A stretch of DNA of 64,000 nt from an uncultured Thiomicrospira sp. (GTDB lineage: Bacteria; Pseudomonadota; Gammaproteobacteria; CAKMZV01). The DNA lies in assembly GCA_965195345.1 (NCBI GenBank), contig OZ239628.1, forward strand, positions 1,792,001 to 1,856,000. The letters are read 5' to 3'. The notes under the pieces were generated by a model, which ran no database searches, was not told the origin of the DNA, and worked only from the letters and a program-made list of their open reading frames with translations. Below, in pieces: positions 13,837 through 49,140 of this stretch (the first letter of the stretch is position 1; every line of letters begins with the position of its first letter). The position numbers and the translations under genes were made by a program.

Positions 13837-14676
13837 TTATTTCAGGCGTTTCGCATGCCAAGCAATATGATCACCTATAAATGTTGCAATAAAGTGATAG
13901 CCGTGATCGTATCCTGTTTGCATACGAACTTCAACCTCAACACCATGAGTGCTTGCAACCGCTTGGAGATTCTCAGTCAATAACTCTTGTGGATAAAATT
14001 CATCTGCCGTGCCTTGATCAATCAGTATTTTTTCAGGACGCGCCCCGTCTTCAATTAAACAACAAGCATCATACTGTCGCCAGTTAGATTGGTCGGTTCC
14101 AATATATCCAGTAAACGCATTGATACCCCACGCACTTTTAGCAGGATTGCAGATAGGCGAAAAAGCCGAAATGCTTTTGTACGCTTTTGGATTTTTCATT
14201 CCAATCATTAAAGCACCGTGCCCACCCATAGAATGACCGCTAATAGACTTGTTATCATTGATGGGCAGCATAAGCGAATGTATCACCTTGGGCAACTCGT
14301 AAACAATGTAATCGTACATATGATAGTTTTTTGAAAATGGCGCAACCGTTGAATTCAAATAAAATCCTGCACCTTGCCCAAAATCATAGTTTTCATCATC
14401 AGGCACTTCCGAACCTCTTGGGCTAGTGTCTGGTATAACCAATGCGACACCGTGCTCTGCTGCATATCGTTGTGCACCTGCTTTCACACGAAAATTTTCA
14501 TCCGTACATGTTAAGCCAGACAGCCAATAAATCGCTGGAACAGGTGCTATTTGTGATTGAGGTGGCAAGTACAATGAGAACTGCATGATGCAATTACAAG
14601 TACTTGAACGGTGTTTGACAACATGTAAAGTGCCTTCAAACTCCTTGATTGATTCAACAATATTGCATTCGCTCAT
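13837..14676 (-). CDS. fghA: S-formylglutathione hydrolase
   Basis: WLSGLTC, PDTSPRG, GHSMGG nucleophile, GYDHGY; adjacent to frmA. Confidence 0.95.
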   Translation of the reverse strand: MSECNIVESIKEFEGTLHVVKHRSSTCNCIMQFSLYLPPQSQIAPVPAIYWLSGLTCTDENFRVKAGAQRYAAEHGVALVIPDTSPRGSEVPDDENYDFGQGAGFYLNSTVAPFSKNYHMYDYIVYELPKVIHSLMLPINDNKSISGHSMGGHGALMIGMKNPKAYKSISAFSPICNPAKSAWGINAFTGYIGTDQSNWRQYDACCLIEDGARPEKILIDQGTADEFYPQELLTENLQAVASTHGVEVEVRMQTGYDHGYHFIATFIGDHIAWHAKRLK

Positions 14677-14694
14677 AGTATCTTTATACTCCTT

Positions 14695-15819
14695 TTAAAA
14701 AACAATAACCGAACGAATACTCTTGCCTTCGTGCATCAAGTCAAACGCTTTATTAATATCCTCAATGCCAAAAGTGTGGGTAACCATTGGATCAATCTTT
14801 ATCTCTCCGTCGAGATATCTATCTACATATCCTGGTAGCTGCGTACGCCCTTTTACTCCACCAAAAGCCGTGCCTTTCCAAGTACGACCAGTAACCAACT
14901 GAAAAGGACGCGTTGCAATTTCTTTACCGGATCCTGCCACTCCAATGATGGTAGAAACGCCCCAGCCCATATGCGTACATTCCAGCGCGTCGCGCATGAC
15001 ATTCACATTACCGATGCATTCAAAAGAATAATCCACACCGCCATTGGTCATGTCAACAATCGCCTTGCCAATCGGCACGCTTAAATCACTTGGATTGATG
15101 CAATCGGTTGCCCCCAGTGCTTTTGCCATTTCAAATTTGTCAGCATTTAAATCAATGGCAATAATACGCTCTGCTTTAGCCATTACTGCACCTTGAATAA
15201 CACTTAAACCAATGCCTCCCAAACCAAATACTGCCACTGTTGATCCCGCCTCAACTTTTGCTGTATTAAGCACCGCACCAATTCCTGTAGTGATGCCACA
15301 ACCCAACAAACAAATCTTATCCAAAGGCGCAGCTTTATTTACTTTCGCCAAAGCAATTTCTGGAACAATCGTATATTCCGAAAAAGTTGAAGTCCCCATG
15401 TAATGATATATCGACTTGCCTTTTTTAGAAAAGCGTGTTGTTCCATCAGGCATAAAACCGGTCCAAACTGTTTTAGAAATAGCCTGACAAAGATTTGTTT
15501 TTGTCGATTTACAAAATGCACACTCTCCGCATTCTGAAATATAGAGCGGAATAACGTGATCGTCTGGTTTTACAGAGGTAACGCCCTCACCGCATTCAAC
15601 AACAACGCACCCTCCCTCATGCCCTAATACTGCAGGGAAAACCGCTTCTGGATCCTCCCCCGACATAGTAAAGGCATCGGTGTGACAAACACCTGTTGCC
15701 ACCACTTTCAACAATACTTCCCCAGCCTTAGGCCCTTGAAGTTCCAGTTCTTCAATTTCAAGAGGTTGTTTAGCACCCCAAGCAACAGCGGCTCTTACTT
15801 TCATCGAATCATTCCTCAT
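14695..15819 (-). CDS. frmA: S-(hydroxymethyl)glutathione dehydrogenase / class III alcohol dehydrogenase
   Basis: GVCHTD, GHEG, structural Zn cysteines, [15 protein letters not shown]. Confidence 0.96.
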
Positions 15820-27894: not shown

Positions 27895-28905
27895 TTAAGT
27901 GAGCAGTTCTAATATATTCCTATCCAACGCCGCCTCGAAACCTTTATCATTACCGGGATTCGCCGCACAATGTCCCCATACGGAGTTATATGGTCGAAAC
28001 TTTACATTTGGTATGTGTATGGCTTCAAAAGCATTATCTTCTGGCGGGAAGTAGAGATCGTGTTGACAAGGCATCAATATTGTTTTGGCTTTTATAGACG
28101 CTAATGCTTTGACAAAATTATTATCGTATGACTTGCTTATATCTGCGTTTTGCCATGTTGCTAATTTAGTCAATAAATTGTTAGCGTCCCAATTTGCGAC
28201 ATGATCATCCTCCCAATCCACTAACAATTCTTCAATCGAGTTAAAGCCCAGTTGTTGAAATAGTTTTTCTCGATAGAAACTTTGCGAAAAAGCCCAACCC
28301 GCGTACACTCGAGCAAAAGCCTTTAAACCTGCAACTGGAGGTGTGTCGTATTCCCCTTGATTGAAGGTTTGATCCGCACACAATGCAGCTTTAACGCCCT
28401 CTAAAAATACGAAGTTATGACGTGAAGTTTTTGCTGAAGCACAAAATGGCAAGATTGCCTTCACCATGTGCGGGTATTGAACCGCCCATTGATAGGCTTG
28501 ACAGCCTGCCATCGACCAACCAGCAACTAATGCAATGCTTTCTACAGCTAATTTCTCAGTGAGCAATCTGTATTGACAGAAAACATTATCCCACAAGCTT
28601 ATTTTTGGGAAAAGTGAGTTCTGTTGGGATGGGATTGTGTTATTCGGTGATGTTGATAGACCGTTGCCAAATAAATTAACCGAAATAATAAAATGTTTTT
28701 TTGGATTAATTGCCCGATCCTCTCCAAAAAAGCCCTCATTTCTATAATGATTCCCCGTATAAAATGTTGGCAAAAGTATGACGTTGTCCTTCTTTGGTGA
28801 TAAATCCCCGTAGGTTTTGTACGCCAACTGTGCTTGATGTAACGTTTCACCCGAAGTTAGTTCAACATCGCCTAATAGGAATAATTCATAATCGTTTTTC
28901 TTCAT
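27895..28905 (-). CDS. Alpha/beta hydrolase, homoserine O-acetyltransferase (MetX)-like family
   Basis: LAYKTYG, GNGLSTSP, GWSMAG nucleophile elbow, DLYF, WGH catalytic triad positions. Confidence 0.85.
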   Translation of the reverse strand: MKKNDYELFLLGDVELTSGETLHQAQLAYKTYGDLSPKKDNVILLPTFYTGNHYRNEGFFGEDRAINPKKHFIISVNLFGNGLSTSPNNTIPSQQNSLFPKISLWDNVFCQYRLLTEKLAVESIALVAGWSMAGCQAYQWAVQYPHMVKAILPFCASAKTSRHNFVFLEGVKAALCADQTFNQGEYDTPPVAGLKAFARVYAGWAFSQSFYREKLFQQLGFNSIEELLVDWEDDHVANWDANNLLTKLATWQNADISKSYDNNFVKALASIKAKTILMPCQHDLYFPPEDNAFEAIHIPNVKFRPYNSVWGHCAANPGNDKGFEAALDRNILELLT

Positions 28906-29348
28906 GGTGCTTCTGCATTGTTTATCTTAACTGTATTTCTTTAATTAAGCATATTTTTTGTCATATGCTCAATGTGGATTAGTTCATGGAGAGCCTCTAA
29001 TCTCAACAAATATTTCAACGTTCTTTAACTCACATTACCCACACTCTTGAAGGAGGACGATAATAAGCGGAGAATATTCATTGTACTGATAATTTTATTT
29101 CTTAATATACGAAAAGAATACATCCTTAACACAGCATAATGCTTTCATTAAATAGACAAATTGAGATATTTAAGGGAATGGGAAAATAATTCAAAAAAAA
29201 TCAAGAAATGATTTTAAATCCGTGATAGCATTATTTACATGTTTCACATAGATAATTTATTAGATATGTTGAACAAGATTACAGCACTTTAAAAAGCAAG
29301 CGTTTTTCATGCTTACCTTATGAGTTTCTTTTTATAAATAGAGGGATA

Positions 29349-30461
29349 ATGATTATACAAGACATGCTCCAGTCATTAGAAACATGGGCAGATGATAAAA
29401 ACAATCTGAAAAAAGGGCTTCCTTCTTTTGTGTATACTAGCAAAGAATTCTGGGATCTTGAATGCAAAACTCTTTTCAGACAAAATTGGATATGCGTTGG
29501 CTTTGCTCACGAGTTAAAAGAAACGGGTGATGTTATTCCAGTTGTTGTTGGCAATCAATCCCTTATATTAGTCAAGAATACTCAAGGGAAAGTGGTCGCT
29601 TTTCACAATGTTTGCCGCCATAGGTGTTTACATTTAGTGGACCAACCAAAAAATGTAGGTAAGCTCATACGTTGCCCCTACCATGCTTGGGCGTATAACT
29701 TGGACGGAGCGTTGCGTAGTTCTCCTCATTTTGGTGGCACAGACAATCATAATCCAGAAGGATTTGATCCAGAAGAATTTGGCTTAATTCCAGTAAGAAC
29801 ACACGTGTGGCATGATTGGATATTCGTTAATTTAGATGGCAATGCCCCAGATTTTGAAGAGTATTCAACCCCTTTAGCCAATCGCCTTCAAGGAGTGAAC
29901 TGGGATAAAACCCAGCATATAGCAACGCTTGATTTTGGTGAAATAGCAACGAATTGGAAGTTCATTATGGAGAACTTCATTGAACCATATCATGTACAGT
30001 TTGTTCATCGCTCAACAACAAGTCAACCACTGGAAGATCACTATACTGTGGTGGATGGTGCGTGTTTGGGCAGTTCAATCGACATGCAAGAAGAAGCTGG
30101 TGTTAAGGGCAGTTTAGCCGTTAGTTCTCGGTATTTAACATTATTCCCTAATTTTATTATTGGAAGATACTTTCCAGATCAGCTAGGTGTATATCTAAAT
30201 ATCCCTTTAGGTCCAAATCGTATGGCGCAAAAAAGAGCGATTTATAGCACTGAAGGACAAACTTTGACCCATGAAGAGGTTGATAATTTAAAGACACTTT
30301 GGTGGGATGTGCACCGAGAAGATCATGTTATTTGCGAGCGGATGCAAATTGGTCGAAATTCATCCGTTTCTGACAGTGGTGGTGTTTTATCGCCACACTG
30401 GGAAGACAGCGTCAGGGCTTTTGAAGAACTAATAGTTCAAAGCGTCAACAATAATCCTTAA
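29349..30461 (+). CDS. Rieske non-heme iron oxygenase alpha subunit (choline monooxygenase/CntA-like group)
   Basis: CRH...CPYH Rieske motif; NWK..ENFIEPYHVQFVH iron motif with bridging Glu; late ED ligand; GAGG RBS. Confidence 0.9.
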   Translation: MIIQDMLQSLETWADDKNNLKKGLPSFVYTSKEFWDLECKTLFRQNWICVGFAHELKETGDVIPVVVGNQSLILVKNTQGKVVAFHNVCRHRCLHLVDQPKNVGKLIRCPYHAWAYNLDGALRSSPHFGGTDNHNPEGFDPEEFGLIPVRTHVWHDWIFVNLDGNAPDFEEYSTPLANRLQGVNWDKTQHIATLDFGEIATNWKFIMENFIEPYHVQFVHRSTTSQPLEDHYTVVDGACLGSSIDMQEEAGVKGSLAVSSRYLTLFPNFIIGRYFPDQLGVYLNIPLGPNRMAQKRAIYSTEGQTLTHEEVDNLKTLWWDVHREDHVICERMQIGRNSSVSDSGGVLSPHWEDSVRAFEELIVQSVNNNP

Positions 30462-30489
30462 AAACATACGAACAAGGAGTCGAACAAAT

Positions 30490-30921
30490 ATGAATCAAAA
30501 CAATAATAAATACAACTTCCGTCTTGCCCACACAATGATACGGGTTCTTGATTTAGAAAAATCTTTGCATTTTTATTGCGACCTGCTTGGTATGCAAGTG
30601 CAACGACGTACTGATTACCCAGCAGGACGCTTTACCAATACGTTTATCGGCTATGGAGCAGAAGCAGAGTTTCCTTGCTTAGAGTTAACTCATAATTGGG
30701 ATCAAGAAGCGCCTTACGAAAAAGGAAATGGTTGGGGGCATATTTGTATTGAAACACCCGATGTATATAAATCTTGCGAAGAACTCGTTAGAATTGGCGT
30801 TGAATTCATAAGCCCTCCCAAGCCTATGAATGCCGGCACAAGAATTCTTGCATTCTGTAAAGATCCCGACGGTTATATTATTGAATTAAATGAATCTATA
30901 AATAAGGAGAAACATGACTAA
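30490..30921 (+). CDS. Lactoylglutathione lyase (glyoxalase I)-like VOC protein
   Basis: HTMIRV, LELTHNW, GHI, DPDGYIIEL metal-ligand pattern; AAGGAG RBS. Confidence 0.88.
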   Translation: MNQNNNKYNFRLAHTMIRVLDLEKSLHFYCDLLGMQVQRRTDYPAGRFTNTFIGYGAEAEFPCLELTHNWDQEAPYEKGNGWGHICIETPDVYKSCEELVRIGVEFISPPKPMNAGTRILAFCKDPDGYIIELNESINKEKHD

Positions 30922-31315
30922 CACCCCTCAATTGTTTAAATTTACTGAAATTGAGCATCGCTTACAAACATTAGAACCTGGAAAGTCCTACATCAAACCC
31001 TTTGTCACTAGCAAAATAAGTAACACAATGTGTGGAGGCCTTAACTTCCTCAATAAAGTCTCTGTCCCTTGGCGCTTAACTTGCGATGAAATCATTTATT
31101 GCATGGAAGGAACATTCCGTTTAACTTGTAACGGTGAGTCGTATATTTGCAATCCTGGTGATGTTTTGTATATTCCAAAAGATAATGATATTGCTTACGA
31201 ATGCGACGAAAAATGTGTGATTTTTTACGCTGCCTATCCCCACGATTGGAAACAACAAGCTGGCATCACGTTTGTGCCCGGAATTGATCCAGAGGACATG
31301 CCACAACCAGAATAG
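30914..31315 (+). CDS. EutQ-like cupin protein
   Basis: MCGG...WRLTCDEIIYCMEG...PGDVLYIPKD...YAAYPHDW matches the EutQ/cupin_3 pattern; overlaps the upstream gene. Confidence 0.75.
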   Translation: MTNTPQLFKFTEIEHRLQTLEPGKSYIKPFVTSKISNTMCGGLNFLNKVSVPWRLTCDEIIYCMEGTFRLTCNGESYICNPGDVLYIPKDNDIAYECDEKCVIFYAAYPHDWKQQAGITFVPGIDPEDMPQPE

Positions 31316-31343
31316 TTCAACATTATTTTTACGGAGTATTGAT

Positions 31344-32771
31344 ATGACAACAAATAACCAACTGTATTTTCAAAACATCAACGATGCCATTGAGCATAAC
31401 CGTAAAAGAATCCCCGAGACAAAGTCATATCTTGAAAAGGAGGGGGTAAAGTATGTACTTTCAAGTTGGATTGATCTGCACGGTATCCCAAAAACCAAAC
31501 CAGTCCCAATGAGTGATTATGAAGCCCTTTGCTTAGGCAAAGGACCGCAATTTGCAGTGCACTCAATATCCTATGTCCCTGAGCTGAGCCCAGCGGATTC
31601 AGATCAAATAATGATTCCTGATCTAGATGCAATCTATATTTGCCCTTGGGATAAAAGCATGGCCATTATTTTTGCTGATTTATATTGGGAAGGTGCTCCG
31701 TATGATGTTTGTCCTCGTCAAGCGTTAAAACGTGCGATACATGAAGCAGGAGAACTGGGTTATGTTGGGTTTGCTGGCATAGAGCCTGAGTTCATAGCCA
31801 TGCGATATGATCAAGATGGTCAACCCGTTAAATTTTTCGATAATGATCCGGAAAAAGGGATAAGGCCGAGACGACAAGCATTTGGTTACGATGTTGAATA
31901 CTCTATAGATTCAATGCCGTTCTTAAAAGAGTTGATTGATATTCTTGAAGACATGGGTTGGAATTTACACGATGTTGTTGCCGAAGGTGCCTATTCTCAA
32001 TTTGAACTTGATTTTCACTATACCGATTTGTTACAAATGGCAGATCGATTCGTATTTCTACGCATATTATTAAAAGAAGTTGCTAAAAAAAGTGACATGT
32101 TCATTACTTTCATGCCTAAACCAACCATAGGAGACTGGCGTTCAGGTGCCCATATAAACTTTTCTATGCAGCATATTGATCGACTGGGTGAAAATATTTT
32201 TCAAAACGGCAAAGAGTGGTCTGAATTATCTCAATACGCAGTTGGTGGTCTTATGGCACATGCTGAAGCAATCACTGCTCTCACCTGCCCCACAGTTAAT
32301 TCTTACAATGGATTAGTACCTAGAGTTGGCGGGTTTGAAGGAGGAACAGTTACATGGGCTCCGACAAATATTACTTATGGTTACAATAACCGTTCTGCTC
32401 AATTTCGCTTGCCTCAAAGTAGACACTGTATTGAAAACAGAGCGGCTGATATGACGATGAATGTTTATTTATCGCTCGCTATGACATTATCCGCTTCACT
32501 TGAAGGCATGAAAGCACAAATGGATCCAGGTAGCCCTACCGACATCGATTTATACAGCTTAACAGAACAAGAATTTAAAGACATGGGAATTCGCCGCTTA
32601 CCGCGTAATTTATTAGTGGCAACTGAGGCATTAAGAACAGACTCTCTCGCCATCAAGACTTTAGGTTCTACTATGCATAACTCCTACATTGCGTATAAAA
32701 ATGATGAGTGGGAAAGATACCATCAAGCGGTAACTGATTGGGAAGTTAAAGAATATTTAAGGCTATACTAA
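31344..32771 (+). CDS. Glutamine synthetase-like (gamma-glutamyl amide ligase; GlnT/GmaS-related) protein
   Basis: DLHG, GIEPEF, QFE, FMPKP, SGAHIN, NRSA, ENRAAD, TDWE; start ATG 31344 after GGAG. Confidence 0.88.
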   Translation: MTTNNQLYFQNINDAIEHNRKRIPETKSYLEKEGVKYVLSSWIDLHGIPKTKPVPMSDYEALCLGKGPQFAVHSISYVPELSPADSDQIMIPDLDAIYICPWDKSMAIIFADLYWEGAPYDVCPRQALKRAIHEAGELGYVGFAGIEPEFIAMRYDQDGQPVKFFDNDPEKGIRPRRQAFGYDVEYSIDSMPFLKELIDILEDMGWNLHDVVAEGAYSQFELDFHYTDLLQMADRFVFLRILLKEVAKKSDMFITFMPKPTIGDWRSGAHINFSMQHIDRLGENIFQNGKEWSELSQYAVGGLMAHAEAITALTCPTVNSYNGLVPRVGGFEGGTVTWAPTNITYGYNNRSAQFRLPQSRHCIENRAADMTMNVYLSLAMTLSASLEGMKAQMDPGSPTDIDLYSLTEQEFKDMGIRRLPRNLLVATEALRTDSLAIKTLGSTMHNSYIAYKNDEWERYHQAVTDWEVKEYLRLY

Positions 32772-32979: not shown

Positions 32980-33003
32980 TAGGTAGGTAGGTAGGTAGGT
33001 AGG
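32980..33003 (+). repeat. Tetranucleotide simple sequence repeat (TAGG)6
   Basis: Six perfect TAGG units, followed after one base by TACAAT (33005-33010). Confidence 0.95.
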
Positions 33004-33063: not shown

Positions 33064-36000
33064 ATGAACAATTTTTTCCCAGCTTTAATGCTTTCTCTAT
33101 TGGCCTTAACAACATCACTGCATGCGCAAGCAACTTCTACTGAGAGCGCAAATGCTGCGCTTTCTGTGGAAACATATGCAGGTAGCAGTGAGGGTTTTCT
33201 TAATGGACCTACCAATATAGCAAGGTTTAATTTTCCACATGGGCTAGCAATTGCGCCAGATGGGCGTGTCTTTGTCGGAGATACTTTTAACAATAGGATT
33301 CGTGTAATCAGTGCTGATGGTTCTAATGTATCTACTTTTGCAAGTGGAGTTAATGTACTAGTTCAATTAGCAATCGGATCAGATGGACGCATATTCGTTT
33401 CGGAATTTTTTAATGGACAACTTAAAGTGATAAGCGCCGACGGTTCAAATGTCACTACCCTAGCCTCTGGACTAAATAACCCCCAATCAGTCGCCGTGGC
33501 ACCAGATGGACGTGTCTTCTTTGGTGACGCAAGCGGAAGAATTTTTGTTCTTAACGCTGATGGTACGAATAGAAGCACGTTCGCTTCAGGATTTAGTTCG
33601 CCTGAAGGCATTGCAATCTCTTCAGATGGGCGTGTTTTTGTTGCAGAGACTCTTGCAAATAGAATTCGTGTTATTAGTGCAGATGGCTCCAATGTGTCAA
33701 CCTTGCCAGGGACATATAATAGACCAAGAGGAGTGACAGTTACACGTGATGGGCGTGTCTTTATATCGGACACCGGTAATCATCGCATTCAAGTTATTAG
33801 TGCAGATGGCTTAACAGTGAGCACTTATGCAGGAAGTGGGGTAGAAGGTTTTGCTGATGGATCAACCAGTACTGCTCAATTTAATGACCCCATTCAGCTT
33901 GCCCTTGATGCCAATGGACGGCTTCTTTTTGCAGACCGTGACAATCATCGCATACGTGTCATATCAGCTCCTGCAAACGAAGAGCCTTCTGATTTGGTCA
34001 ATAGCCGTATTAGTGTGAATAGTGGTTTGTTATCAGCGAACCAAGCTTTGGCTGTTGGAGATGTTATTGAATTGATTGTTAATGCAAAAGGCAGCTCAGA
34101 TGTCCTTGTGCAAACAACCTACACACTTAGCAACCCTATACAATTACGTGCCCATGTATGGCCAAGAGACCTTGCAAAGCATGTTAATCAATTGAATGCT
34201 TCGGTGACAATTGGAGAGTGCTCAAGTGGTGGAAATAAAGCAGCGTGTGACCCAAATGATGTGTCTCCAATTGCCAGTAGCTTTCGCAATCTCCTTTGGG
34301 CATCACCCAGTTTAGGAGAGATTGAAGTCCAACTCAATCATATGCCAACGCCCGATAGAACAACAGCCTCATTAACAAGAGATTTAGCAATAACAGATGG
34401 AGCATTAGGTGCCGAACAAGCTTTAGCAGTTGGAGATGTCATTGAACTGATTGTTAATGCGAAAGGCAGCTCAGATGTTCTTATGCAAACGGCTCTCACT
34501 TTGAGCCACCCTGTGCATTTACGTTCTCATGTATGGCCGAAACTCTTAGCCAATCAAGTGAATCAGCTAAATACTACAGTTGCGATCGGAGAGTGTACAA
34601 CTGGTCGATTTAAAGCATACTGTAATGTACAAGATGTCGCCTCAATCGGCAGCAGCTATCGCAATGTCCTTTGGTCATCACCCAGTTTAGGAGAAGTTGA
34701 AGTACAACTCAATCACACGCCAACCCCCGATAGAACAACAGCTTCATTAACAAGAGATTTAGCAATAACAGATGGAACATTAGGTGCCGAACAAGCTTTA
34801 GCCGTTGGAGATGTAATTCAATTGGTTGTTAGCGCGAAAGGCAGCTCTGATGTCCTTATGCAAACAGTTCTTACTTTGAACAATCCTGTGCATTTGCGTT
34901 CTCATGTATGGCCAAAGCTCTTAGCCAATCAAGTGAATCAGCTAAATACTACAGTCGCGATTGGCGAGTGTACAACTGGTCGATTTAAAGCATACTGTAA
35001 TGCACAAGATGTCGCTTCAATCGGCAGCAGCTATCGCAATGTCCTTTGGGTATCACCCAGTTTAGGAGAGGTTGAAATACAATTGAACGCTATTGTTAGA
35101 AATGTAGGTAATTCATCATTGAACATCACGGCTTCTGTTGGACAGTTGCTTTTTTCATGGCCAACTGACCCGATTGCTGATTTTTATCGTGTGCAGATTA
35201 ATCCTACTGGAGTGGATGGATTTATTCCATTATCAACGCCAAGTCAGTCACTGAAAACGACAAACTTTACCTTTGGTATTTCGTTGTCGGATCATATAAA
35301 CCTTGCCACTAGTAATGTTTCGTTTTTAGTAGAAAGCTGTATAGGCAATCCAGATGGCAATAATAATTGTATACAGTGGACTGCTCAAACAAGGATTAAT
35401 GATTTAAATCAATTAATTGGCTTTATCAAAGCGAATAATGCTGGATACAGAGATAGATTTGAAACTGTTAGTATCAGTAGAGATGGTAAAACGCTGGCAG
35501 TGAGTGCACTTAGTGAAGATAGCAGTGGTAGGGGCGTTAATGCTAGACAAGACCAATCAAGGTCTAATTCTGGTGCAGCCTATGTTTTCACACAAACCGC
35601 TACTGGTCTATGGACGCAGCAGGCTTTCCTAAAAGCGAGTAATGCAGATATTAATGATTATTTTGGTAATAGTCTTAGTTTAAGCAGTGATGGTAATACG
35701 CTCGCGGTGGGTGCAATCGGTGAACGAAGTCTCGCTACTGGTGTTAATGGTGATGAGAATAATAACAGCGCATCTCATAATGCAGGGGCTGCCTATGTTT
35801 TTGTGCGAAGCGCTAGTGGCACATGGAGTCAACAAGCCTATATAAAAGCGAGTAATACAGAAGTAGATGATCAATTCGCTGCAAGCATAGCTTTGAGCGG
35901 TGATGGTAATACGTTGGCAGTAGGTGCCCTATATGAAGACGGTAGAACTGGCGGGATTAACGGTGACCAGAGCAACGAAGCGAATAACTTCACATTTCAT

Positions 36001-36846
36001 GCAGGGGCTGCTTACGTATACACCCGTAATAGTAGTACTCAGTGGACCCAGCAAGCATATATTAAAGCACATAATCCAAGTCACGATAATCGATTTGGCG
36101 TAAGTGTAAGCTTGGATGACGATGGCAATACACTGGTGGTAGGTTCAATGTATGAGGGTAGTAACTCAACAGGCGTGGCGAACGGCATTGATGATATTGT
36201 AATAAATGGTCCACACTCAATAAATTTCGCAGGTGCAGCATACGTTTACACCCGCAGTATCACTGGTGTATGGAGTCAACAAGCCTTTATTAAACCAAAC
36301 AATACAGGTGTTGGTGACAGATTTGGCTTTGATGTCAGTTTAAGTGCCGATGGTAATACGCTCGCGGTAGCTTCAGAGAGTGAAGATAGCAGTGGTACCG
36401 GGGTTAATCCAATTGAAGAAGGCGATGGTTTAACAGATTCAGGTGCAGTATTTATTTACGCTCGTAATAAAGATAGTCTCTGGGGTTTTCAAGCCTACAT
36501 TAAAGCGAGCAACCCAACTTCTAATGATCGCTTTGGACATAGCGTAAGCCTCAGTGGTGATGGCAATATGCTGGCTGTAGGTGCTCCTTTTGAGGATAGC
36601 CGATCTATTGGGTTAAATGGCATTGAGAGTGATGAAAGTGGAAGTGATGTAGGTGCGGTTTACACATTTATCCGAAGTGGCAGTGTATGGAGTCAACAAG
36701 CCTACATTAAACCAACGAGAATAAGTGGTTTTGGTGATCATTTTGGATTTAGCTTAAGCTTCAGTGGTGATGGTAGCAGACTGGCTATAGGAGCACCTTT
36801 AGAGTCCAGTGGTGCTTTTTCTGAAGGTGCAGCGTACTTGTATTAA
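33064..36846 (+). CDS. Large secreted protein: NHL repeats + three ~125-aa repeats (GbpA domain-2-like) + FG-GAP/integrin-like propeller
   Basis: Sec signal ending SLHA; about 6 NHL repeats (PDGRVFV.D..NRIRVI); 3 copies of LAVGDVI...WP..LA..VN; about 7 FG-GAP-type blades (FG.S.SLS.DGNTLAVGA...GAAYVF); AAGGA RBS. Confidence 0.85.
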   Translation: MNNFFPALMLSLLALTTSLHAQATSTESANAALSVETYAGSSEGFLNGPTNIARFNFPHGLAIAPDGRVFVGDTFNNRIRVISADGSNVSTFASGVNVLVQLAIGSDGRIFVSEFFNGQLKVISADGSNVTTLASGLNNPQSVAVAPDGRVFFGDASGRIFVLNADGTNRSTFASGFSSPEGIAISSDGRVFVAETLANRIRVISADGSNVSTLPGTYNRPRGVTVTRDGRVFISDTGNHRIQVISADGLTVSTYAGSGVEGFADGSTSTAQFNDPIQLALDANGRLLFADRDNHRIRVISAPANEEPSDLVNSRISVNSGLLSANQALAVGDVIELIVNAKGSSDVLVQTTYTLSNPIQLRAHVWPRDLAKHVNQLNASVTIGECSSGGNKAACDPNDVSPIASSFRNLLWASPSLGEIEVQLNHMPTPDRTTASLTRDLAITDGALGAEQALAVGDVIELIVNAKGSSDVLMQTALTLSHPVHLRSHVWPKLLANQVNQLNTTVAIGECTTGRFKAYCNVQDVASIGSSYRNVLWSSPSLGEVEVQLNHTPTPDRTTASLTRDLAITDGTLGAEQALAVGDVIQLVVSAKGSSDVLMQTVLTLNNPVHLRSHVWPKLLANQVNQLNTTVAIGECTTGRFKAYCNAQDVASIGSSYRNVLWVSPSLGEVEIQLNAIVRNVGNSSLNITASVGQLLFSWPTDPIADFYRVQINPTGVDGFIPLSTPSQSLKTTNFTFGISLSDHINLATSNVSFLVESCIGNPDGNNNCIQWTAQTRINDLNQLIGFIKANNAGYRDRFETVSISRDGKTLAVSALSEDSSGRGVNARQDQSRSNSGAAYVFTQTATGLWTQQAFLKASNADINDYFGNSLSLSSDGNTLAVGAIGERSLATGVNGDENNNSASHNAGAAYVFVRSASGTWSQQAYIKASNTEVDDQFAASIALSGDGNTLAVGALYEDGRTGGINGDQSNEANNFTFHAGAAYVYTRNSSTQWTQQAYIKAHNPSHDNRFGVSVSLDDDGNTLVVGSMYEGSNSTGVANGIDDIVINGPHSINFAGAAYVYTRSITGVWSQQAFIKPNNTGVGDRFGFDVSLSADGNTLAVASESEDSSGTGVNPIEEGDGLTDSGAVFIYARNKDSLWGFQAYIKASNPTSNDRFGHSVSLSGDGNMLAVGAPFEDSRSIGLNGIESDESGSDVGAVYTFIRSGSVWSQQAYIKPTRISGFGDHFGFSLSFSGDGSRLAIGAPLESSGAFSEGAAYLY
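33976..35090 (+). repeat. Three tandem 375-bp intragenic repeats
   Basis: CCCGATAGAACAACAGC at 34351 and 34726 (period 375 nt); copies 2 and 3 nearly identical, copy 1 more diverged; outer boundaries approximate. Confidence 0.9.
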
Positions 36847-36948: not shown

Positions 36949-37277
36949 ATTTGGGAATGGATACGTCGCATTAGATTTCATGTTGCCCATTAGTCCTCTT
37001 TGTGGGATAACTTAAAATAGCCTGACTTTAGAACCTGCCCTAATGTGAACAGGGATTTATTCATACGTTTTAAGAACGCCACCTTAATACTCTCGCATTT
37101 ACCAGTAATCAAACCTTCTTCAAAAAAACCACGAATAGGATAATATTTCCGATAATTGCTATCTACCGTAAATCGTGCCAGTAATAATTGAAAAATTGTG
37201 GCTTTTGCTACTTGCAATCTCCTCATTCAAAAACTGATACAATCCAGCCACTTTATAAATTTGTAATGGAGTTTGCT

Positions 37278-38918
37278 ATGCAGCGAGAATCGATGGAGTT
37301 TGATGTTGTTATTGTCGGAGCAGGTCCTGCTGGGTTGAGCGCTGCGATTGCATTAAAGAAAGCAAATAAAGATTTATCCGTGGTTGTTTTAGAAAAAGGG
37401 TCGGAAGTTGGTGCGCATATTTTATCGGGCGCAATATTTGAAACAACCGCACTTGATGAGTTAATCCCCGATTGGAAAAAACTGGGCGCACCGGTTAAGA
37501 CAGCCGTCAAAGGAGATGATTTCTACCTATACAAGAATGAAGAAAAAGCCACTAAGTTGCCACATTTTTTCATCCCAAAAAGCATGCATAATGATGGAAA
37601 TTATATTATTAGCCTTGGCAATCTGTGTCGTTGGATGGCGGAACAAGCCGAAGAAATGGGCGTTGAAATATTTCCTGGCTTTTCCGCCGCAGATATACTC
37701 TACAACGATGAGGGTGCTGTTAGAGGAGTCGTGACCAATGACATGGGAATTGACTACGATGGTAATAAAAAAGACAGTTTTGAGCCCGGTATGGAACTAC
37801 TTGCAAAGTACACATTATTCTCCGAAGGCTGTCGAGGTCATCTTGGCAAGCAATTGATTGAACGTTATCAACTTTCAGACAATTGCGATGCTCAACATTA
37901 CGCGCTTGGTGTCAAAGAAATTTGGGAAATCGATCCAAAAAAACATCAAGAAGGCTTAGTAGTACACGGTGCTGGTTGGCCATTGTCTGAAAACAGTGCT
38001 GCTGGTGGTTCTTTCTCGTACCACGCCGAAAATAACCAATTGGTTATTGGACTGATTACTGACTTGAATTACCGCAATCCGTACCTTTCACCATTTGAGG
38101 AATTCCAACGTTTCAAAATGCAAAAAATGAATAAGACGTTGCTTGAAGGAGGCAAACGCATAAGCTACGGTGCACGTGCGATCACTAAAGGTGGCATGAA
38201 TGCCTTACCACGCCAACATTTTCCTGGAGGATTGCTGATTGGGTGCGATGCAGGCACTTTGAATTTTTCCAAAATCAAGGGGTCGCATACTGCTATGAAA
38301 TCTGGTATGTTGGCTGCCCAAGTAGTTGCAGAAGCCATAACTTCTGGCAATAACGGAGGTAGTGATTTAATGGAATACACTACGGCATTCAAACAATCAT
38401 GGCTCTATGATGAACTGCAAAATTCGCGCAATTTTGGCGCGGCATTACACAATTACGGCATGTGGGTTGGCGGCGCCATCAACTTCATTCAATACAATTT
38501 ATTTGGTGGGAAATTCCCCATCACATTGCGCGACAATAAGCCCGATAACACACAGTTAGTCTCCTCTTCACATGCGCAGCCTATTGAATATCCCAAACCC
38601 GATGGAGTGATTACTTTTGATCGATTATCTTCGGTTTATTTATCGAATACCAATCACGAGGAAGCACAACCTTGTCATCTCACCTTGAAGAACAGTCTAA
38701 TTCCTATTGAAAAAAACCTTGCAATCTATGACGCTCCAGAACAACGTTATTGCCCTGCAGGAGTATACGAAATAATAACTAAGGATGATCAGCCACAATT
38801 ACAAATTAATGCCCAAAATTGCATACACTGCAAAACTTGCGACATTAAAGACCCCACCCAAAACATTCATTGGATAACGCCCGAAGGTGGTGGAGGTCCA
38901 AACTACACCTCAATGTAA
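37278..38918 (+). CDS. Electron transfer flavoprotein-ubiquinone oxidoreductase
   Basis: GAGPAGL, EKGSEVGAH, EGCRG, KIKGSH, CPAGVYE, NCIHCKTC, PEGGGGP; ATG 37278 with GGAG RBS. Confidence 0.96.
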   Translation: MQRESMEFDVVIVGAGPAGLSAAIALKKANKDLSVVVLEKGSEVGAHILSGAIFETTALDELIPDWKKLGAPVKTAVKGDDFYLYKNEEKATKLPHFFIPKSMHNDGNYIISLGNLCRWMAEQAEEMGVEIFPGFSAADILYNDEGAVRGVVTNDMGIDYDGNKKDSFEPGMELLAKYTLFSEGCRGHLGKQLIERYQLSDNCDAQHYALGVKEIWEIDPKKHQEGLVVHGAGWPLSENSAAGGSFSYHAENNQLVIGLITDLNYRNPYLSPFEEFQRFKMQKMNKTLLEGGKRISYGARAITKGGMNALPRQHFPGGLLIGCDAGTLNFSKIKGSHTAMKSGMLAAQVVAEAITSGNNGGSDLMEYTTAFKQSWLYDELQNSRNFGAALHNYGMWVGGAINFIQYNLFGGKFPITLRDNKPDNTQLVSSSHAQPIEYPKPDGVITFDRLSSVYLSNTNHEEAQPCHLTLKNSLIPIEKNLAIYDAPEQRYCPAGVYEIITKDDQPQLQINAQNCIHCKTCDIKDPTQNIHWITPEGGGGPNYTSM

Positions 38919-45296: not shown

Positions 45297-45872
45297 TCAC
45301 ATTCTGTTGAAAGTATCTTTGATATGCTTAGCAACGTAGTGTGCAAATGATGGTCTTACTAGTAAATGAACACTACCATCTTCATTGGGCGGTCTAAAAA
45401 TAATTACTGGCGATTGCATCAACATAGTCGCAACGACTTTACCAGCAGGCAGTGCCGATCGAATATCATAGTTTATTAAATGCGACAACAATGTTTCACT
45501 CTTCAATCCACTCAATTGCAAGCATGTATATCCCCCTGAATTATCAACGACTACCATTGAGTCTTCGAACTTATCTGTTTGCTCAAGAATCGCTTGTTGA
45601 TCTCCGTTCTTTAAAACAAGTAAAAATTCATCTGGACTCATCCACAAACATAATTTTTCACCACCGGTGGTAATTTGCAACGGTTCTCCAAGATTGAACC
45701 CGAGATATTGGTGAACAATAATTTTGGCACGTTCTAAATCTTTTATACGCAAAACAAGGTAAGCATTATCAGCACATTCAATACAGTTGACTTCATCGCT
45801 CTTTATCAAAAAGCCATTTTCATCAACCATTGATTCTAATATTGAAGAAAACACTGGAGTAAAATTAATCAT
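45297..45872 (-). CDS. soxG: Heterotetrameric sarcosine oxidase family gamma subunit
   Basis: LWMSPDEFL, VVDNSGG, LLVRPSFAHY; last gene of the soxBDA operon; start ATG 45872. Confidence 0.85.
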   Translation of the reverse strand: MINFTPVFSSILESMVDENGFLIKSDEVNCIECADNAYLVLRIKDLERAKIIVHQYLGFNLGEPLQITTGGEKLCLWMSPDEFLLVLKNGDQQAILEQTDKFEDSMVVVDNSGGYTCLQLSGLKSETLLSHLINYDIRSALPAGKVVATMLMQSPVIIFRPPNEDGSVHLLVRPSFAHYVAKHIKDTFNRM

Positions 45873-48858: not shown

Positions 48859-48861
48859 AAT

Positions 48862-49140
48862 TTAAATGCCTTTTTTCTCTTTTAGGATGGCGGAAACCTC
48901 CGAAATACTGTGGTCAATGGTTGAGCGCCTAACAAGAAAGTATTTCCGACATCCCGCTGTATGCACCCATTGTTCCCACTGCTCTCCTTTATGGTTAGAA
49001 CGATAAAAAACGTAATCTGCCCATTGCTCATCGCTCAATGATTCGGGATCGATTGGACGCCCAATAAAAGCTTCCCCAGCAGGAGTAAAATCCCCCTCTT
49101 CTCTGTGCTCTTTACAGTATGGACAATATATTTCAAACAT
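48862..49140 (-). CDS. soxD: Heterotetrameric sarcosine oxidase family delta subunit
   Basis: IYCPYC, W..Y.F.R.N, W.H..GC zinc ligands. Confidence 0.93.
   Translation of the reverse strand: MFEIYCPYCKEHREEGDFTPAGEAFIGRPIDPESLSDEQWADYVFYRSNHKGEQWEQWVHTAGCRKYFLVRRSTIDHSISEVSAILKEKKGI

What the first reader, a model, noticed from the sequence alone, without database searches (positions are those of the whole stretch)
29349..32771. Apparently uncharacterised amine-catabolic operon: Rieske oxygenase, glyoxalase, EutQ cupin and gamma-glutamyl ligase
Seen: four co-oriented genes with gaps under 30 nt or overlaps, and no reductase gene. Established: Rieske oxygenases with a bridging Glu (EPYH here) include the quaternary-amine C-N cleaving or oxidising group (CntA, choline monooxygenase, GbcA, Stc2). 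GS-like ligases glutamylate amines, and glyoxalase I removes 2-oxo-aldehydes. Inference: oxidative C-N cleavage of a methylated or quaternary amine, with the amine product captured as a gamma-glutamyl amide and the aldehyde product handled by the VOC enzyme and cupin. I do not recognise this gene set from any described pathway; it is the best candidate for a new metabolic system here.
Basis: partly seen in the sequence, partly recalled or inferred. Interest (0 to 1): 0.78.

Follow-up and report, generated by a model that had tools for sequence, protein, structure and literature searches.

The report
Uncharacterised marine Rieske–glyoxalase amine-breakdown gene module
These genes are one copy of a gene set shared by many ocean bacteria, including SAR11, that probably splits a small positively charged nitrogen compound into an amine and a reactive aldehyde, but its substrate is unknown and I found no paper describing it.

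Summary
Four tightly packed, co-oriented genes (Rieske oxygenase, glyoxalase I, EutQ-like cupin, GS-like ligase) lie at 29349-32771 with no reductase gene.

The set is conserved. Of 57 genome loci with a close Rieske relative, 48 keep the glyoxalase, 39 the ligase, 35 the cupin and 31 the esterase. Taxa include Ruegeria, SAR11, SUP05, Arenicellales and SAR324. Starting from the ligase, 40 of 44 informative metagenome loci carry all three upstream genes.

The oxygenase has the CntA/choline-monooxygenase (clade Va) signature with Phe at the pi-cation position. It is not a CntA or GbcA orthologue. The VOC protein is a true glyoxalase I.

The ligase is not GmaS: the catalytic Asp177 is Val, and a canonical GmaS lies elsewhere in the genome. 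The oxygenase-glyoxalase pair occurs without the ligase in 4 of 10 genomes tested. "Amine product captured as a gamma-glutamyl amide" is therefore not supported.

Ten literature searches and NCBIfam (June 2026) gave no description. The 2026 homarine operon is a different gene set. This scan noted the same module six times before on other DNA. Function remains inferred.

The parts
27895..28905 (-). MetX-fold alpha/beta hydrolase, the fifth module gene; closest solved relatives are acetyl esterases, not homoserine acetyltransferases
   Evidence: NCBIfam PRK07581 433 bits (cut-off 332); MetX TIGR01392 146 bits (cut-off 500). PDB sequence hits 5d6o/5e4y at E 4e-64. Their entry titles are 'acetylester hydrolase from C. 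glutamicum' and 'acetyl esterase MekB', at 35-36% identity (the model itself is poor, pLDDT 60). S131, D283 and H312 are invariant in 8 sequences. Orthologues lie next to the GS-like gene in 31 of 57 genome loci and 60 of 80 metagenome loci.
28906..29348 (.). 443-bp AT-rich divergent intergenic region (presumed promoters for both transcription units)
   Evidence: Sequence read. The consensus promoter scan was not above shuffles (15 found against a mean of 20.1), so no promoter is shown.
29349..30461 (+). Rieske non-haem-iron oxygenase alpha subunit, group V / clade Va-like, of a distinct uncharacterised family
   Evidence: Pfam PF00355+PF00848. Best PDB hit is CntA 6y8j, E 8e-30. GbcA NF058607 scores 138.5 bits against a cut-off of 670. 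C89, H91, C109, H112, H215, H220 and D325 are invariant. F210 aligns to CntA Y203 and E212 to E205. The motif NWK..ENFIEPYHV(Q/P)(F/Y/I)VH occurs in 56 of the 57 close loci; L055, cut at its contig end, showed none.
30490..30921 (+). Glyoxalase I (lactoylglutathione lyase type), a second copy in this genome
   Evidence: TIGR00068 131.9 bits (cut-off 120). Best PDB hits are plant, Pseudomonas and E. coli glyoxalase I. H14, E65, H84 and E132 are invariant in 14 orthologues. A housekeeping GloA (51% identity) lies at genome 1216669-1217046 and GloB at 1460481-1461224.
30914..31315 (+). Small EutQ-like cupin without the His metal motif; three near-invariant cysteines
   Evidence: PF06249 62.3 bits. 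AF2 model pLDDT 91.8. Top Foldseek hits are EutQ 2pyt/4axo at 27-30% identity. C57 is kept in 35/36, C63 in 34/36 and C101 in 35/36 sequences. It is 84-91% identical to SAR11, SUP05 and other copies.
31344..32771 (+). Glutamine-synthetase-family ATP-dependent ligase of a distinct subfamily (neither GS nor GmaS)
   Evidence: PF00120 287 bits. TIGR03105 360.9 bits against a cut-off of 469.6. Best PDB hit is 9qur, glutamate--methylamine ligase, E 8e-74. The signature HDVVAEGAYSQFELDF replaces GmaS YQNDHEDANGQFEMNW. The GS Asp50' position is Ala, and the flap has a 4-residue insertion. 38 of the 42 locus-derived sequences aligned carry the module-type motifs.

Best explanation
This is one copy of a widespread, uncharacterised marine catabolic module made of two usually linked units.

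Unit A is the Rieske oxygenase, glyoxalase I and usually the cupin. By analogy with CntA and choline monooxygenase, the oxygenase binds a small cationic, probably N-methylated or quaternary, amine through a pi-cation contact with Phe210. It hydroxylates a carbon next to the nitrogen. The carbinolamine then collapses to a free (methyl)amine plus an aldehyde. The dedicated glyoxalase I implies that this aldehyde is a 2-oxoaldehyde (glyoxal, methylglyoxal or hydroxypyruvaldehyde type). Candidate substrates are therefore amines with a carbonyl next to the N-bearing carbon: betaine aldehyde, 3-dehydrocarnitine, or (tri)methylaminoacetone-like compounds. With glutathione, GloI and the genome's GloB convert the oxoaldehyde to a D-2-hydroxy acid for central metabolism. 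The methylated amine enters the Tmm/Tdm/GmaS/N-methylglutamate genes present in the same genome. Electrons come from a non-dedicated ferredoxin and reductase encoded elsewhere.

Unit B is the GS-like ligase plus the MekB-type esterase. It acts on a different, primary or secondary, amine or ester of the same substrate family. The ligase has a more hydrophobic amine pocket than GmaS. Whether unit B acts before or after the oxygenase is not resolved.

Shown here: gene content, conservation, the family signatures, and the separability of the two units. Inferred: every chemical step.
For: Conservation. Among 57 genome loci whose Rieske protein is at least 48% identical, VOC is present in 48, GS-like in 39, cupin in 35, an AsnC regulator in 32 and MetX-like in 31. 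Hits were counted at >=35% identity and >=50% coverage, and many misses lie at contig ends. The 23 loci with a Rieske of 38% identity or less (L057, L058, L060-L080) carry none of VOC, GS-like or MetX-like. From the ligase side, 40 of 44 metagenome loci with at least 3.3 kb upstream carry Rieske+VOC+cupin, and 52 of 56 with room downstream carry the esterase.

Clade Va signature. Phe210 aligns to CntA Tyr203, which is essential for the pi-cation contact; the Y203F mutant is active (passages of PMC7948474; alignment). It is present in 56 of the 57 close loci; the truncated L055 showed no motif.

Glyoxalase I. TIGR00068 is above its cut-off and the four metal ligands are invariant. It is a second copy alongside a housekeeping GloA and GloB. 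The window also carries glutathione-dependent formaldehyde genes frmA and fghA.

Aliamphritea locus L052. It shows a BCCT (betaine/carnitine/choline) transporter, then Rieske, GloI, cupin, one ORF with no Pfam hit, then GloB. GloB scores TIGR03413 330.9 bits against a cut-off of 200.8.

Methylated-amine context. The window has mgsABC (52410-55393), whose MgsC is 76-80% identical to the MgsC next to the module in Ruegeria-type and SUP05 loci, and soxBAG/mgd-like genes (45297-50412). The genome has Tdm, GmaS and an FMO/Tmm-like ORF.

Separability. In 10 genomes whose Rieske locus lacked the ligase within 8 kb, 6 have a 58-72% identical orthologue elsewhere and 4 have none.
Against: No substrate, product or expression datum exists for any member. 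None of the proposed alpha-carbonyl quaternary amines is known to me as an abundant marine solute (recalled).

The aromatic residue at position 203 defines a sequence clade. It does not prove a quaternary substrate. The Cys-X-X-Cys pair that is important in CntA is absent (P213, V216). CntA Tyr225 falls in an 8-residue deletion.

The model leaves the conserved ligase, esterase and cupin without a defined step. Yet they are co-located with unit A in most loci.

SUP05-type loci place a canonical GmaS inside the module. That favours monomethylamine rather than trimethylamine as the product.

In L052 the Rieske reading frame is broken twice and the BCCT gene is split. That locus may be decaying or carry sequencing errors.

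Two loci (L109, L178) pair the ligase with a second, phthalate-family Rieske protein plus a D-2-hydroxyacid dehydrogenase instead of unit A.
Confidence: 0.45

Rival explanations
1. Gamma-glutamylation comes first, as in the aniline-dioxygenase, isopropylamine (Ipu) and ethanolamine (Eto) pathways. The GS-like ligase attaches a primary amine (for example aminoacetone, 1-aminopropan-2-ol or an ethanolamine derivative) to glutamate. The Rieske oxygenase hydroxylates the N-alkyl carbon of the gamma-glutamyl amide, releasing glutamine plus a 2-oxoaldehyde for GloI. The esterase hydrolyses an amide or thioester intermediate.
For: The ligase and oxygenase are co-located in most loci (39 of 57 and 40 of 44). 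The ligase has all ATP, metal and glutamate-side residues invariant (E147, E149, E214, E221, H270, R350, R355) but a changed amine pocket. A gamma-glutamyl ethanolamine pathway is documented in marine roseobacters (passages of PMC10132767). This reading accounts for four of the five genes.
Against: The Rieske+GloI(+cupin) unit exists in 4 of 10 tested genomes with no orthologue of the ligase. The oxygenase keeps the pi-cation aromatic residue expected for a cationic nitrogen, not an amide. No glutamine-amidotransferase-type or amidase-type gamma-glutamyl hydrolase is in the module. The hydrolase's nearest relatives are acetyl esterases.
Confidence: 0.2
2. Dimethylamine route. The GS-like ligase makes gamma-glutamyl-dimethylamide. 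A Rieske oxygenase demethylates it to gamma-glutamylmethylamide, which enters MgsABC/Mgd. This would fill the DMA gap in SAR11 and other taxa that lack dmmDABC.
For: dmmDABC is absent from all SAR11 and from abundant marine Gamma- and Deltaproteobacteria (abstract and passages of PMC5520151), and those taxa carry this module. The GmaS pocket residues Asn176-Asp177-His178 are Val-Val-Ala here, a more hydrophobic pocket. mgsABC or gmaS lie next to the module in L004, L006, L008, L010, L018 and L019.
Against: It gives no role to glyoxalase I, the best-conserved partner of the oxygenase (48 of 57 loci), or to the esterase and cupin. The clade Va signature points to C-N cleavage or oxidation beside a cationic nitrogen, whereas the characterised N-demethylases (GbcA, Stc2) have Asn at that position. 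Ruegeria species also carry the module, and R. pomeroyi in that genus is the organism in which dmmDABC was defined. Whether the carriers themselves, or this genome, have dmmDABC was not tested.
Confidence: 0.1
3. The oxygenase is simply a bacterial choline monooxygenase that makes betaine aldehyde or glycine betaine. The other genes are neighbours with no shared pathway.
For: Some sources name close homologues 'choline monooxygenase'. A choline dehydrogenase-family gene (L035, L151), glycerophosphodiester phosphodiesterases (L013, L016, L018, L019, L028, L185) and a BCCT transporter (L052) occur near some copies.
Against: The gene order is kept across Alpha-, Gamma- and Deltaproteobacteria-type lineages, which argues for a shared function. 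These source names are automatic. The choline-related neighbours are lineage-specific (1-4 loci each of 137). Betaine aldehyde oxidation needs no glyoxalase.
Confidence: 0.08
4. The cluster is biosynthetic (for example a modified amino acid or N-oxygenated metabolite) rather than catabolic.
For: GS-like ligases, cupins and Rieske oxygenases occur in some natural-product clusters (recalled, not tested).
Against: The module is present in streamlined oligotrophs (SAR11, SUP05). It lies beside catabolic methylamine genes and transporters and an AsnC/Lrp-type regulator (32 of 57 loci). No carrier proteins, exporter-specific genes or tailoring genes are conserved with it.
Confidence: 0.04

Closest known systems
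Carnitine monooxygenase CntA/CntB (E. coli YeaW/YeaX) and the other clade Va group V Rieske oxygenases (choline monooxygenase, OxyBAC)
   Same: CntA is the best solved-structure match (6y8j, E 8e-30). It shares the homotrimer-type alpha-only architecture family, the Rieske and 2-His-1-Asp ligands, the bridging Glu and an aromatic residue at the pi-cation position. hhalign to E. coli YeaW gives probability 99.8 with 27% identity over 317 columns.
   Different: No adjacent reductase. No Cys-X-X-Cys pair. CntA Tyr225 lies in a deletion, Phe319 is His322 and Tyr315 is Trp318. The partner genes are glyoxalase I, cupin, ligase and esterase, whereas E. coli K-12 has the transporter YeaV and D-malate dehydrogenase DmlA beside yeaWX.
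Gamma-glutamylmethylamide synthetase GmaS (PDB 7cql, 9qur) and the N-methylglutamate pathway
   Same: GmaS is the best solved-structure match of the ligase (9qur, E 8e-74). Like GmaS, the ligase lacks the GS Asp50' (Ala). Glu186 and Arg312 equivalents (E221, R350) are kept. The module often lies near mgsABC/gmaS.
   Different: The catalytic Asp177, reported as strictly conserved in GmaS (passage of PMC7948447), is Val. The surrounding motif differs, and there is a 4-residue flap insertion. TIGR03105 scores below its cut-off (360.9 against 469.6). A true GmaS (653 bits) is encoded elsewhere in this genome.
Gamma-glutamyl-assisted amine catabolism: ethanolamine (Eto) pathway of roseobacters/Chromohalobacter, isopropylamine Ipu, putrescine Puu, aniline dioxygenase
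   Same: A GS-family ligase is clustered with oxidative enzymes and a hydrolase, in marine Alpha- and Gammaproteobacteria (passages of PMC10132767; Ipu, Puu and aniline systems recalled).
   Different: Those pathways use dehydrogenases or a two-subunit dioxygenase plus a gamma-glutamyl amidohydrolase. Here the oxidant is a clade Va Rieske monooxygenase-type protein, the hydrolase is an acetyl-esterase relative, and a glyoxalase I is the most constant partner.
Homarine catabolic operon homABCDER (Nat Microbiol 2026, PMC13236597)
   Same: A recently defined, widely distributed marine N-methyl-compound catabolic operon in SAR11, Rhodobacterales and Gammaproteobacteria. It feeds N-methylglutamate and Mgd (abstract and section 6).
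   Different: Its gene content is different: HomA has an FAD-binding domain, HomB is TgnB-like, HomC is a peptidase and HomD is aldehyde-dehydrogenase-like. The paper's main text contains no occurrence of Rieske, glyoxalase, cupin or glutamine synthetase. Its supplementary tables were not read.
Acetyl esterases MekB (Pseudomonas veronii) and the C. glutamicum acetylester hydrolase (PDB 5e4y/5efz, 5d6o)
   Same: These are the nearest solved relatives of the fifth gene: E 4e-64 and 35-36% identity, with the MetX fold and a Ser-Asp-His triad.
   Different: The substrate is unknown. Here the gene is coupled to a GS-like ligase (adjacent in most loci), a pairing not described for MekB (recalled).

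Membership tests
Group V clade Va Rieske oxygenases (CntA, choline monooxygenase, OxyBAC) | Rieske CXH...CXXH cluster ligands and 2-His-1-carboxylate iron site | tested here: met
   C89, H91, C109, H112, H215, H220 and D325 are invariant in 17 sequences. D325 aligns to the YeaW Asp that corresponds to CntA D323.
Group V clade Va Rieske oxygenases (CntA, choline monooxygenase, OxyBAC) | Bridging glutamate (CntA E205) | tested here: met
   E212 aligns to E205 and is invariant.
Group V clade Va Rieske oxygenases (CntA, choline monooxygenase, OxyBAC) | Aromatic residue (Tyr/Phe) at CntA position 203 (pi-cation); Asn in clade Vb demethylases | tested here: met
   F210 aligns to Y203. The criterion comes from PMC7948474. 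Phe is present in 56 of the 57 close loci; L055, cut at its contig end, showed no motif.
Group V clade Va Rieske oxygenases (CntA, choline monooxygenase, OxyBAC) | Cys-X-X-Cys pair next to the iron site (present in some group V members; needed for CntA activity) | tested here: not met
   P213 and V216 occupy the C206 and C209 positions (PMC10952381 passages).
Group V clade Va Rieske oxygenases (CntA, choline monooxygenase, OxyBAC) | Oxidation of a quaternary ammonium substrate | not testable with these tools
   Needs an enzyme assay.
CntA/YeaW carnitine monooxygenase (orthologue) | Carnitine-binding residues (Tyr225, Asn270, Tyr295, Phe319) and an adjacent CntB reductase | tested here: not met
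   Tyr225 falls in an 8-residue deletion and Phe319 is His322. Asn270 and Tyr295 could not be aligned reliably. There is no reductase in the window, and the only PF00175 ORF in the genome is CysJ.
GbcA glycine betaine monooxygenase (NCBIfam NF058607) | Score at or above the curated cut-off (670 bits) | tested here: not met
   138.5 bits.
Glyoxalase I (lactoylglutathione lyase) | TIGR00068 at or above its cut-off, and the His/Glu/His/Glu metal ligands | tested here: met
   131.9 bits against 120. H14, E65, H84 and E132 are invariant in 14 sequences and align to conserved residues of solved GloI. That these four are the metal ligands is recalled from E. coli GlxI.
Glyoxalase I (lactoylglutathione lyase) | Glutathione-dependent isomerisation of a 2-oxoaldehyde hemithioacetal | not testable with these tools
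   Indirect only: GloB is in the genome, GloB is adjacent in L052, and frmA/fghA are in the window.
GmaS (gamma-glutamylmethylamide synthetase) | Catalytic Asp177 (deprotonates methylamine), reported as strictly conserved | tested here: not met
   Val at that position. The module-type motif is present in 38 of the 42 locus-derived sequences aligned.
GmaS (gamma-glutamylmethylamide synthetase) | Glu186 and Arg312 equivalents; absence of GS Asp50' | tested here: met
   E221 and R350 are invariant. Ala occupies the Asp50' position.
GmaS (gamma-glutamylmethylamide synthetase) | TIGR03105 at or above its cut-off (469.6 bits) | tested here: not met
   360.9 bits. The genome's canonical copy scores 653.4.
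MetX homoserine O-acetyltransferase | TIGR01392 at or above its cut-off (500 bits) | tested here: not met
   146 bits. It does pass PRK07581, 'hypothetical protein' subfamily, with 433.3 against 332.
EutQ (ethanolamine-utilisation cupin / acetate kinase) | Pfam PF06249 above the gathering score, and the EutQ fold | tested here: met
   62.3 bits against 21. The top Foldseek hits are EutQ 2pyt and 4axo.
EutQ (ethanolamine-utilisation cupin / acetate kinase) | NCBIfam equivalog PRK15457 at or above its cut-off (193 bits); eut operon context | tested here: not met
   54.9 bits. No eut genes are in the window.
Aniline-dioxygenase-type gamma-glutamyl-assisted oxygenase | GS-like ligase plus amidotransferase-like hydrolase plus alpha/beta Rieske dioxygenase plus reductase in one cluster | tested here: not met
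   Only the ligase and an alpha-only Rieske protein are present. No beta subunit, GATase or reductase is in the module.
homABCDER homarine operon | HomA (FAD-binding), HomB, HomC (peptidase) and HomD (aldehyde dehydrogenase-like) gene content | tested here: not met
   Gene content compared with section 6 of PMC13236597.

The most novel reading that the evidence does not exclude
The Rieske-glyoxalase unit is an unrecognised oxygen-dependent route by which SAR11, SUP05, roseobacters and sponge symbionts cleave a choline- or carnitine-derived alpha-carbonyl quaternary amine (betaine aldehyde, 3-dehydrocarnitine or trimethylaminoacetone). The products would be a volatile methylamine plus glyoxal or methylglyoxal, so this would be a new aerobic source of marine methylated amines. 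The linked ligase would be a new-specificity gamma-glutamyl ligase whose substrate could be dimethylamine or an amino-ketone or amino-alcohol. That would touch the known DMA bottleneck in taxa lacking dmmDABC.
Probability: 0.2. Interest if true: 0.85.

Novelty: new variant of a known kind. Interest (0 to 1): 0.62.

Why it matters
The module sits in some of the most abundant ocean bacteria: SAR11 single-cell genomes, SUP05/Thioglobus, Rhodobacterales, Arenicellales, SAR324 and sponge symbionts. For the ligase alone, at least 1487 90%-identity protein clusters score E <= 1e-100.

Methylated amines and quaternary ammonium osmolytes are major carriers of marine dissolved organic nitrogen and precursors of climate-active amines (PMC5520151). 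If the module releases methylamines aerobically, or removes dimethylamine, it changes the budget of these compounds.

It would also define a new reaction pairing, in which a Rieske C-N cleavage is coupled to a dedicated glyoxalase, and a new specificity class of GS-like ligases.

The hypothesis is directly testable, because cultivable carriers exist (Ruegeria lacuscaerulensis, R. meonggei).

Tried and rejected
1. Homarine operon. I suspected the module was homABCDER (five enzymes plus a regulator). I rejected this after reading the abstract, section 6 and term searches of PMC13236597, because the gene families differ.

2. Glyoxylate-carboligase route. Tartronate-semialdehyde reductase, glycerate kinase and hydroxypyruvate isomerase near some copies suggested glyoxal to glycolate to glyoxylate to glycerate. 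However, no Gcl above the cut-off was found in the 3 SUP05-type genomes searched (best 344 bits against 711). L109 and L185 were not held. These neighbours are confined to a few loci: TSR 2, GlyK 3, Hyi 1 of 137.

3. Complex prediction (Rieske + GloI + cupin, with the cupin as partner). The verdict was 'no answer' (score 0.00, controls not run). It is not evidence either way.

4. RNA evidence. The look-up of sequencing runs listed no RNA holder. Four holders came from one study, with kind not given.

5. Promoter and terminator scan. Neither was above shuffles.

6. Order-level phyletic profile. The order holds only 5 genomes, 3 of them with the Rieske gene, which is too few.

7. MetX-like AF2 model. 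It was poor (pLDDT 60.3, 8-row alignment). I used only the titles and identities of its Foldseek hits, together with the sequence search.

8. Protein Atlas for the cupin. It returned only EutQ/cupin clusters.

9. A DOI look-up for the MekB structure paper was not held.

10. Labelling the distant Rieske loci as GbcA failed. All 15 that scored at all were far below the cut-off, at 115-161 bits against 670.

11. Pocket mapping of CntA Asn270 and Tyr295 was not possible from the profile alignment.

Full report
OBSERVATION

- Rieske oxygenase, 29349-30461.
- VOC protein, 30490-30921, 28 nt after the Rieske stop.
- Cupin, 30914-31315, overlapping the VOC gene by 8 nt.
- GS-like ligase, from the ATG at 31344 to 32771, 28 nt after the cupin stop. 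An in-frame TTG at 31272 is the mechanical ORF start.

Pfam and NCBIfam confirm the families. There is no reductase gene in the cluster or window.

The window lies in a complete 1.92-Mb single-contig genome. Its only PF00175 ORF is CysJ. A putidaredoxin-reductase-type ORF and a small plant-type ferredoxin are encoded far away.

CONSERVATION

The Rieske protein has 2039 relatives at E <= 0.001 among 3106 candidates. Apart from the window's own protein, the 120 listed are 61-76% identical. Their names, where given, are only 'aromatic ring-hydroxylating dioxygenase subunit alpha' or 'choline monooxygenase'.

The best 80 became loci. I kept the 57 loci whose Rieske protein is at least 48% identical (L001-L056, L059). 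I set aside 23 (L057, L058, L060-L080; 38% or less), which carry none of the partner genes.

In the 57 loci, tblastn (>=35% identity, >=50% coverage) finds:
- VOC gene in 48.
- GS-like gene in 39.
- Cupin in 35.
- An AsnC/Lrp regulator in 32.
- A MetX-fold hydrolase in 31.
- A second, phthalate-family Rieske protein in 19.
- A D-2-hydroxyacid dehydrogenase in 16.

Many misses are at contig ends. In this window the hydrolase is present too, at 27895-28905 on the minus strand, divergent from the Rieske gene. The module therefore has five genes here.

Carriers include Ruegeria, Hyphomicrobiales and Paracoccaceae MAGs, Pelagibacteraceae single-cell genomes, SUP05/Thioglobus, Arenicellales, SAR324, Poriferihabitaceae, a Haliangium MAG, Aliamphritea and a Pseudomonas.

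I repeated the test from the other side. A metagenome scan with a GS-like alignment gave 80 loci. Of 44 with at least 3.3 kb upstream, 40 carry Rieske+VOC+cupin. Of 56 with room downstream, 52 carry the hydrolase.

The genes are conserved together.

TWO UNITS

The set is not indivisible. For 10 genomes whose Rieske locus had no GS-like gene within 8 kb, a whole-genome search found a 58-72% identical orthologue elsewhere in 6 and none in 4. The 4 without are a same-genus relative of this genome (L009), an Arenicellales MAG, Aliamphritea spongicola and Pseudomonas sp. NY15435.

Conversely, four metagenome loci have the ligase without the Rieske-VOC pair nearby. Two of them (L109, L178) instead have the second Rieske protein, the 2-hydroxyacid dehydrogenase and AsnC. 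In L110 and L115 a NitT/TauT-type ABC transporter lies between the ligase and hydrolase genes.

I therefore treat the set as two units:
- Unit A: the oxygenase, glyoxalase and usually the cupin.
- Unit B: the ligase and esterase.

THE PROTEINS

Oxygenase. The best solved relative is carnitine monooxygenase CntA (E 8e-30). The alignment puts Phe210 at CntA Tyr203, Glu212 at the bridging Glu205, and His215/His220 at the iron histidines. The CntA structure paper makes an aromatic residue at 203 the mark of clade Va (C-N cleaving or oxidising; carnitine, choline, benzalkonium). Asn marks the clade Vb demethylases. The paper also shows that Y203F is active (passages of PMC7948474). The motif NWK..ENFIEPYHV(Q/P)(F/Y/I)VH occurs in 56 of the 57 close loci; L055, cut at its contig end, showed none.

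It is not a CntA orthologue:
- The Cys pair is absent.
- A profile alignment to E. coli YeaW puts CntA Tyr225 in an 8-residue deletion.
- The same alignment changes Phe319 to an invariant His322.

It is not GbcA either (138.5 bits against 670).

VOC protein. It passes the glyoxalase I equivalog cut-off and aligns best to plant, Pseudomonas and E. coli GloI. It keeps His14, Glu65, His84 and Glu132 in all 14 orthologues aligned. The genome has a separate GloA (51% identical) and GloB.

Cupin. It folds confidently (pLDDT 91.8) and resembles EutQ. It lacks the cupin His motif and has three near-invariant cysteines.

Ligase. The best solved relative is a glutamate--methylamine ligase. However, the motif that holds the GmaS methylamine pocket (YQNDHEDANGQFEMNW) reads HDVVAEGAYSQFELDF here. 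The catalytic Asp177, reported as strictly conserved in GmaS (passage of PMC7948447), is Val. The GS Asp50' is Ala, and the flap carries a 4-residue insertion. Of the 42 locus-derived sequences aligned, 38 have the module-type motifs. The other 4 are canonical GmaS genes that happen to be neighbours. The ATP, metal and glutamate residues are invariant, so it is probably an active ligase with a different amine.

Hydrolase. It fails the MetX equivalog. Its nearest solved relatives are the acetyl esterase MekB and a C. glutamicum acetylester hydrolase (E 4e-64, 35-36% identity).

CONTEXT

This genome has a methylated-amine island at 82-119 kb: an FMO/Tmm-like ORF, Tdm, a TMAO-type ABC transporter, formate-THF ligase, a canonical GmaS, and mgs- and mgd-like genes.

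The window itself carries:
- mgsABC at 52410-55393.
- soxBAG/mgd-like genes at 45297-50412.
- frmA and fghA at 13837-15819.
- ETF-QO at 37188-38918.

The window's MgsC is 76-80% identical to the MgsC that lies directly beside the module in four Ruegeria-type loci and one SUP05 locus. The island copy is only 51-53% identical.

In SUP05-type loci L018 and L019 a canonical GmaS lies between the GS-like and esterase genes.

In Aliamphritea the order is BCCT transporter, Rieske, GloI, cupin, one ORF with no Pfam hit, GloB. In that record the Rieske frame is broken twice and the BCCT gene is split.

Other neighbours are confined to a few loci each. They include glycerophosphodiesterases, glycerate kinase, tartronate-semialdehyde reductase, hydroxypyruvate isomerase, choline dehydrogenase, a DMGDH-like enzyme with ETF, and MttB.

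MECHANISM

The best-supported reading (confidence about 0.45) is as follows.
- Unit A oxidatively cleaves a C-N bond of a small cationic amine.
- The carbon product is a 2-oxoaldehyde, taken by the dedicated glyoxalase I with glutathione to a D-2-hydroxy acid.
- The amine product passes to the methylamine genes.

The requirement for a 2-oxoaldehyde points to substrates with a carbonyl beside the N-bearing carbon. That step is inference.

The role of unit B is open. It may work on a related primary or secondary amine or an ester precursor. The rival 'glutamylate first, then oxidise' model (0.2) would explain more genes. It conflicts with unit A occurring alone and with the pi-cation residue. 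The dimethylamine idea (0.1) explains the ligase and the taxa that lack dmmDABC (PMC5520151), but not the glyoxalase.

KNOWN OR NEW

- Rieske / GmaS / marine.
- Homarine / Rieske.
- Rieske / GS / glyoxalase / cupin / Ruegeria.
- Dimethylamine / SAR11 / Rieske.
- Rieske / methylglyoxal / aminoacetone.
- CntA structure.
- GmaS structure.
- Glutamylethanolamide.
- Homarine catabolism.
- Rieske / glyoxalase / trimethylamine / marine, 0 papers.

The library lacks most subscription journals, and I did not read supplementary tables.

NCBIfam release 20 (June 2026) has no equivalog for the oxygenase, ligase, cupin or esterase. Source names for relatives are generic. The 2026 homarine operon, which I checked because it also has five genes plus a regulator, is a different gene set.

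This scan had already noted the same module six times on other DNA, with similar readings. I tested their main claims again here.

- The GmaS active-site comparison.
- The acetyl-esterase affinity of the fifth gene.
- The GloB/BCCT locus.
- The two-sided co-occurrence counts.
- The second-Rieske alternative pairing.
- The whole-genome reductase and methylamine-gene inventory.

VERDICT

This is a real, conserved and apparently uncharacterised module built from known enzyme families, with its chemistry inferred. It is a new variant of the group V Rieske amine-oxygenase systems. Interest is moderately high, because of its abundance in key ocean bacteria and its possible bearing on marine methylamine cycling.

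Noticed in passing
window 45297-55393 (minus strand); genome 105975-118951: The genome holds two paralogous N-methylglutamate-pathway sets. The window's mgsABC is the orthologue of the set found beside gmaS in Ruegeria and SUP05 (MgsC 76-80% identical). The set in the 95-119 kb methylated-amine island is divergent (51-53%) and is accompanied by an extra 488-aa GS-like ORF.
   Followed up: partly
genome 121381-122541 (locus L107:1381-2541): A second uncharacterised clade Va-like Rieske oxygenase (386 aa, motif ENYCEAYHLPFVH, GbcA score 128 against 670) lies at the edge of the methylated-amine island. The same family makes up loci L057-L080 in Halomonas, Zobellella, Colwellia, Pseudoalteromonas and others.
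   Followed up: partly
window 32980-33003: A short (TAGG)n tetranucleotide tandem repeat lies in the spacer upstream of a 1260-aa secreted-type repeat protein (NHL, GbpA_2 and FG-GAP repeats; 33064-36846).
   Followed up: no
window 15972-18959 (minus): A 995-aa ORF has no NCBIfam match at E <= 1e-10. It lies between frmA and an acyl-CoA dehydrogenase gene.
   Followed up: no
window 8857-12334: Three genes lie just after the nuo operon: a PEP-mutase/isocitrate-lyase-family ORF, a betaine-aldehyde-dehydrogenase-like ALDH (476 bits against a cut-off of 668), and a 304-aa flavin-reductase-domain protein with an extra C-terminal half. This could be another small catabolic unit.
   Followed up: no
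L018 and L019 (SUP05-type loci), about 12000-13300: A canonical GmaS gene is inserted between the GS-like ligase and the esterase. The two ligases therefore coexist in one operon-like block.
   Followed up: partly
L052 (Aliamphritea spongicola) 5806-9117: The Rieske gene is read in three frames (two frame breaks near 8672-8854), and the BCCT transporter gene is split into two ORFs. This is either a decaying locus or indel errors in the assembly.
   Followed up: partly
window 29349-32771 compared with loci: The operon looks mosaic. Its Rieske and GloI are closest to Hyphomicrobiales- and Rhodobacterales-type copies (66-74%). Its cupin (88-91%) and ligase (73-79%) are closest to SAR11-type copies, whose Rieske is only 54-59% identical.
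   Followed up: no
L192 (E. coli K-12 1881912-1886810): In E. coli the carnitine monooxygenase genes yeaW and yeaX lie next to the transporter gene yeaV and the D-malate dehydrogenase gene dmlA. This is a parallel to a D-2-hydroxy-acid fate for the carbon product.
   Followed up: no
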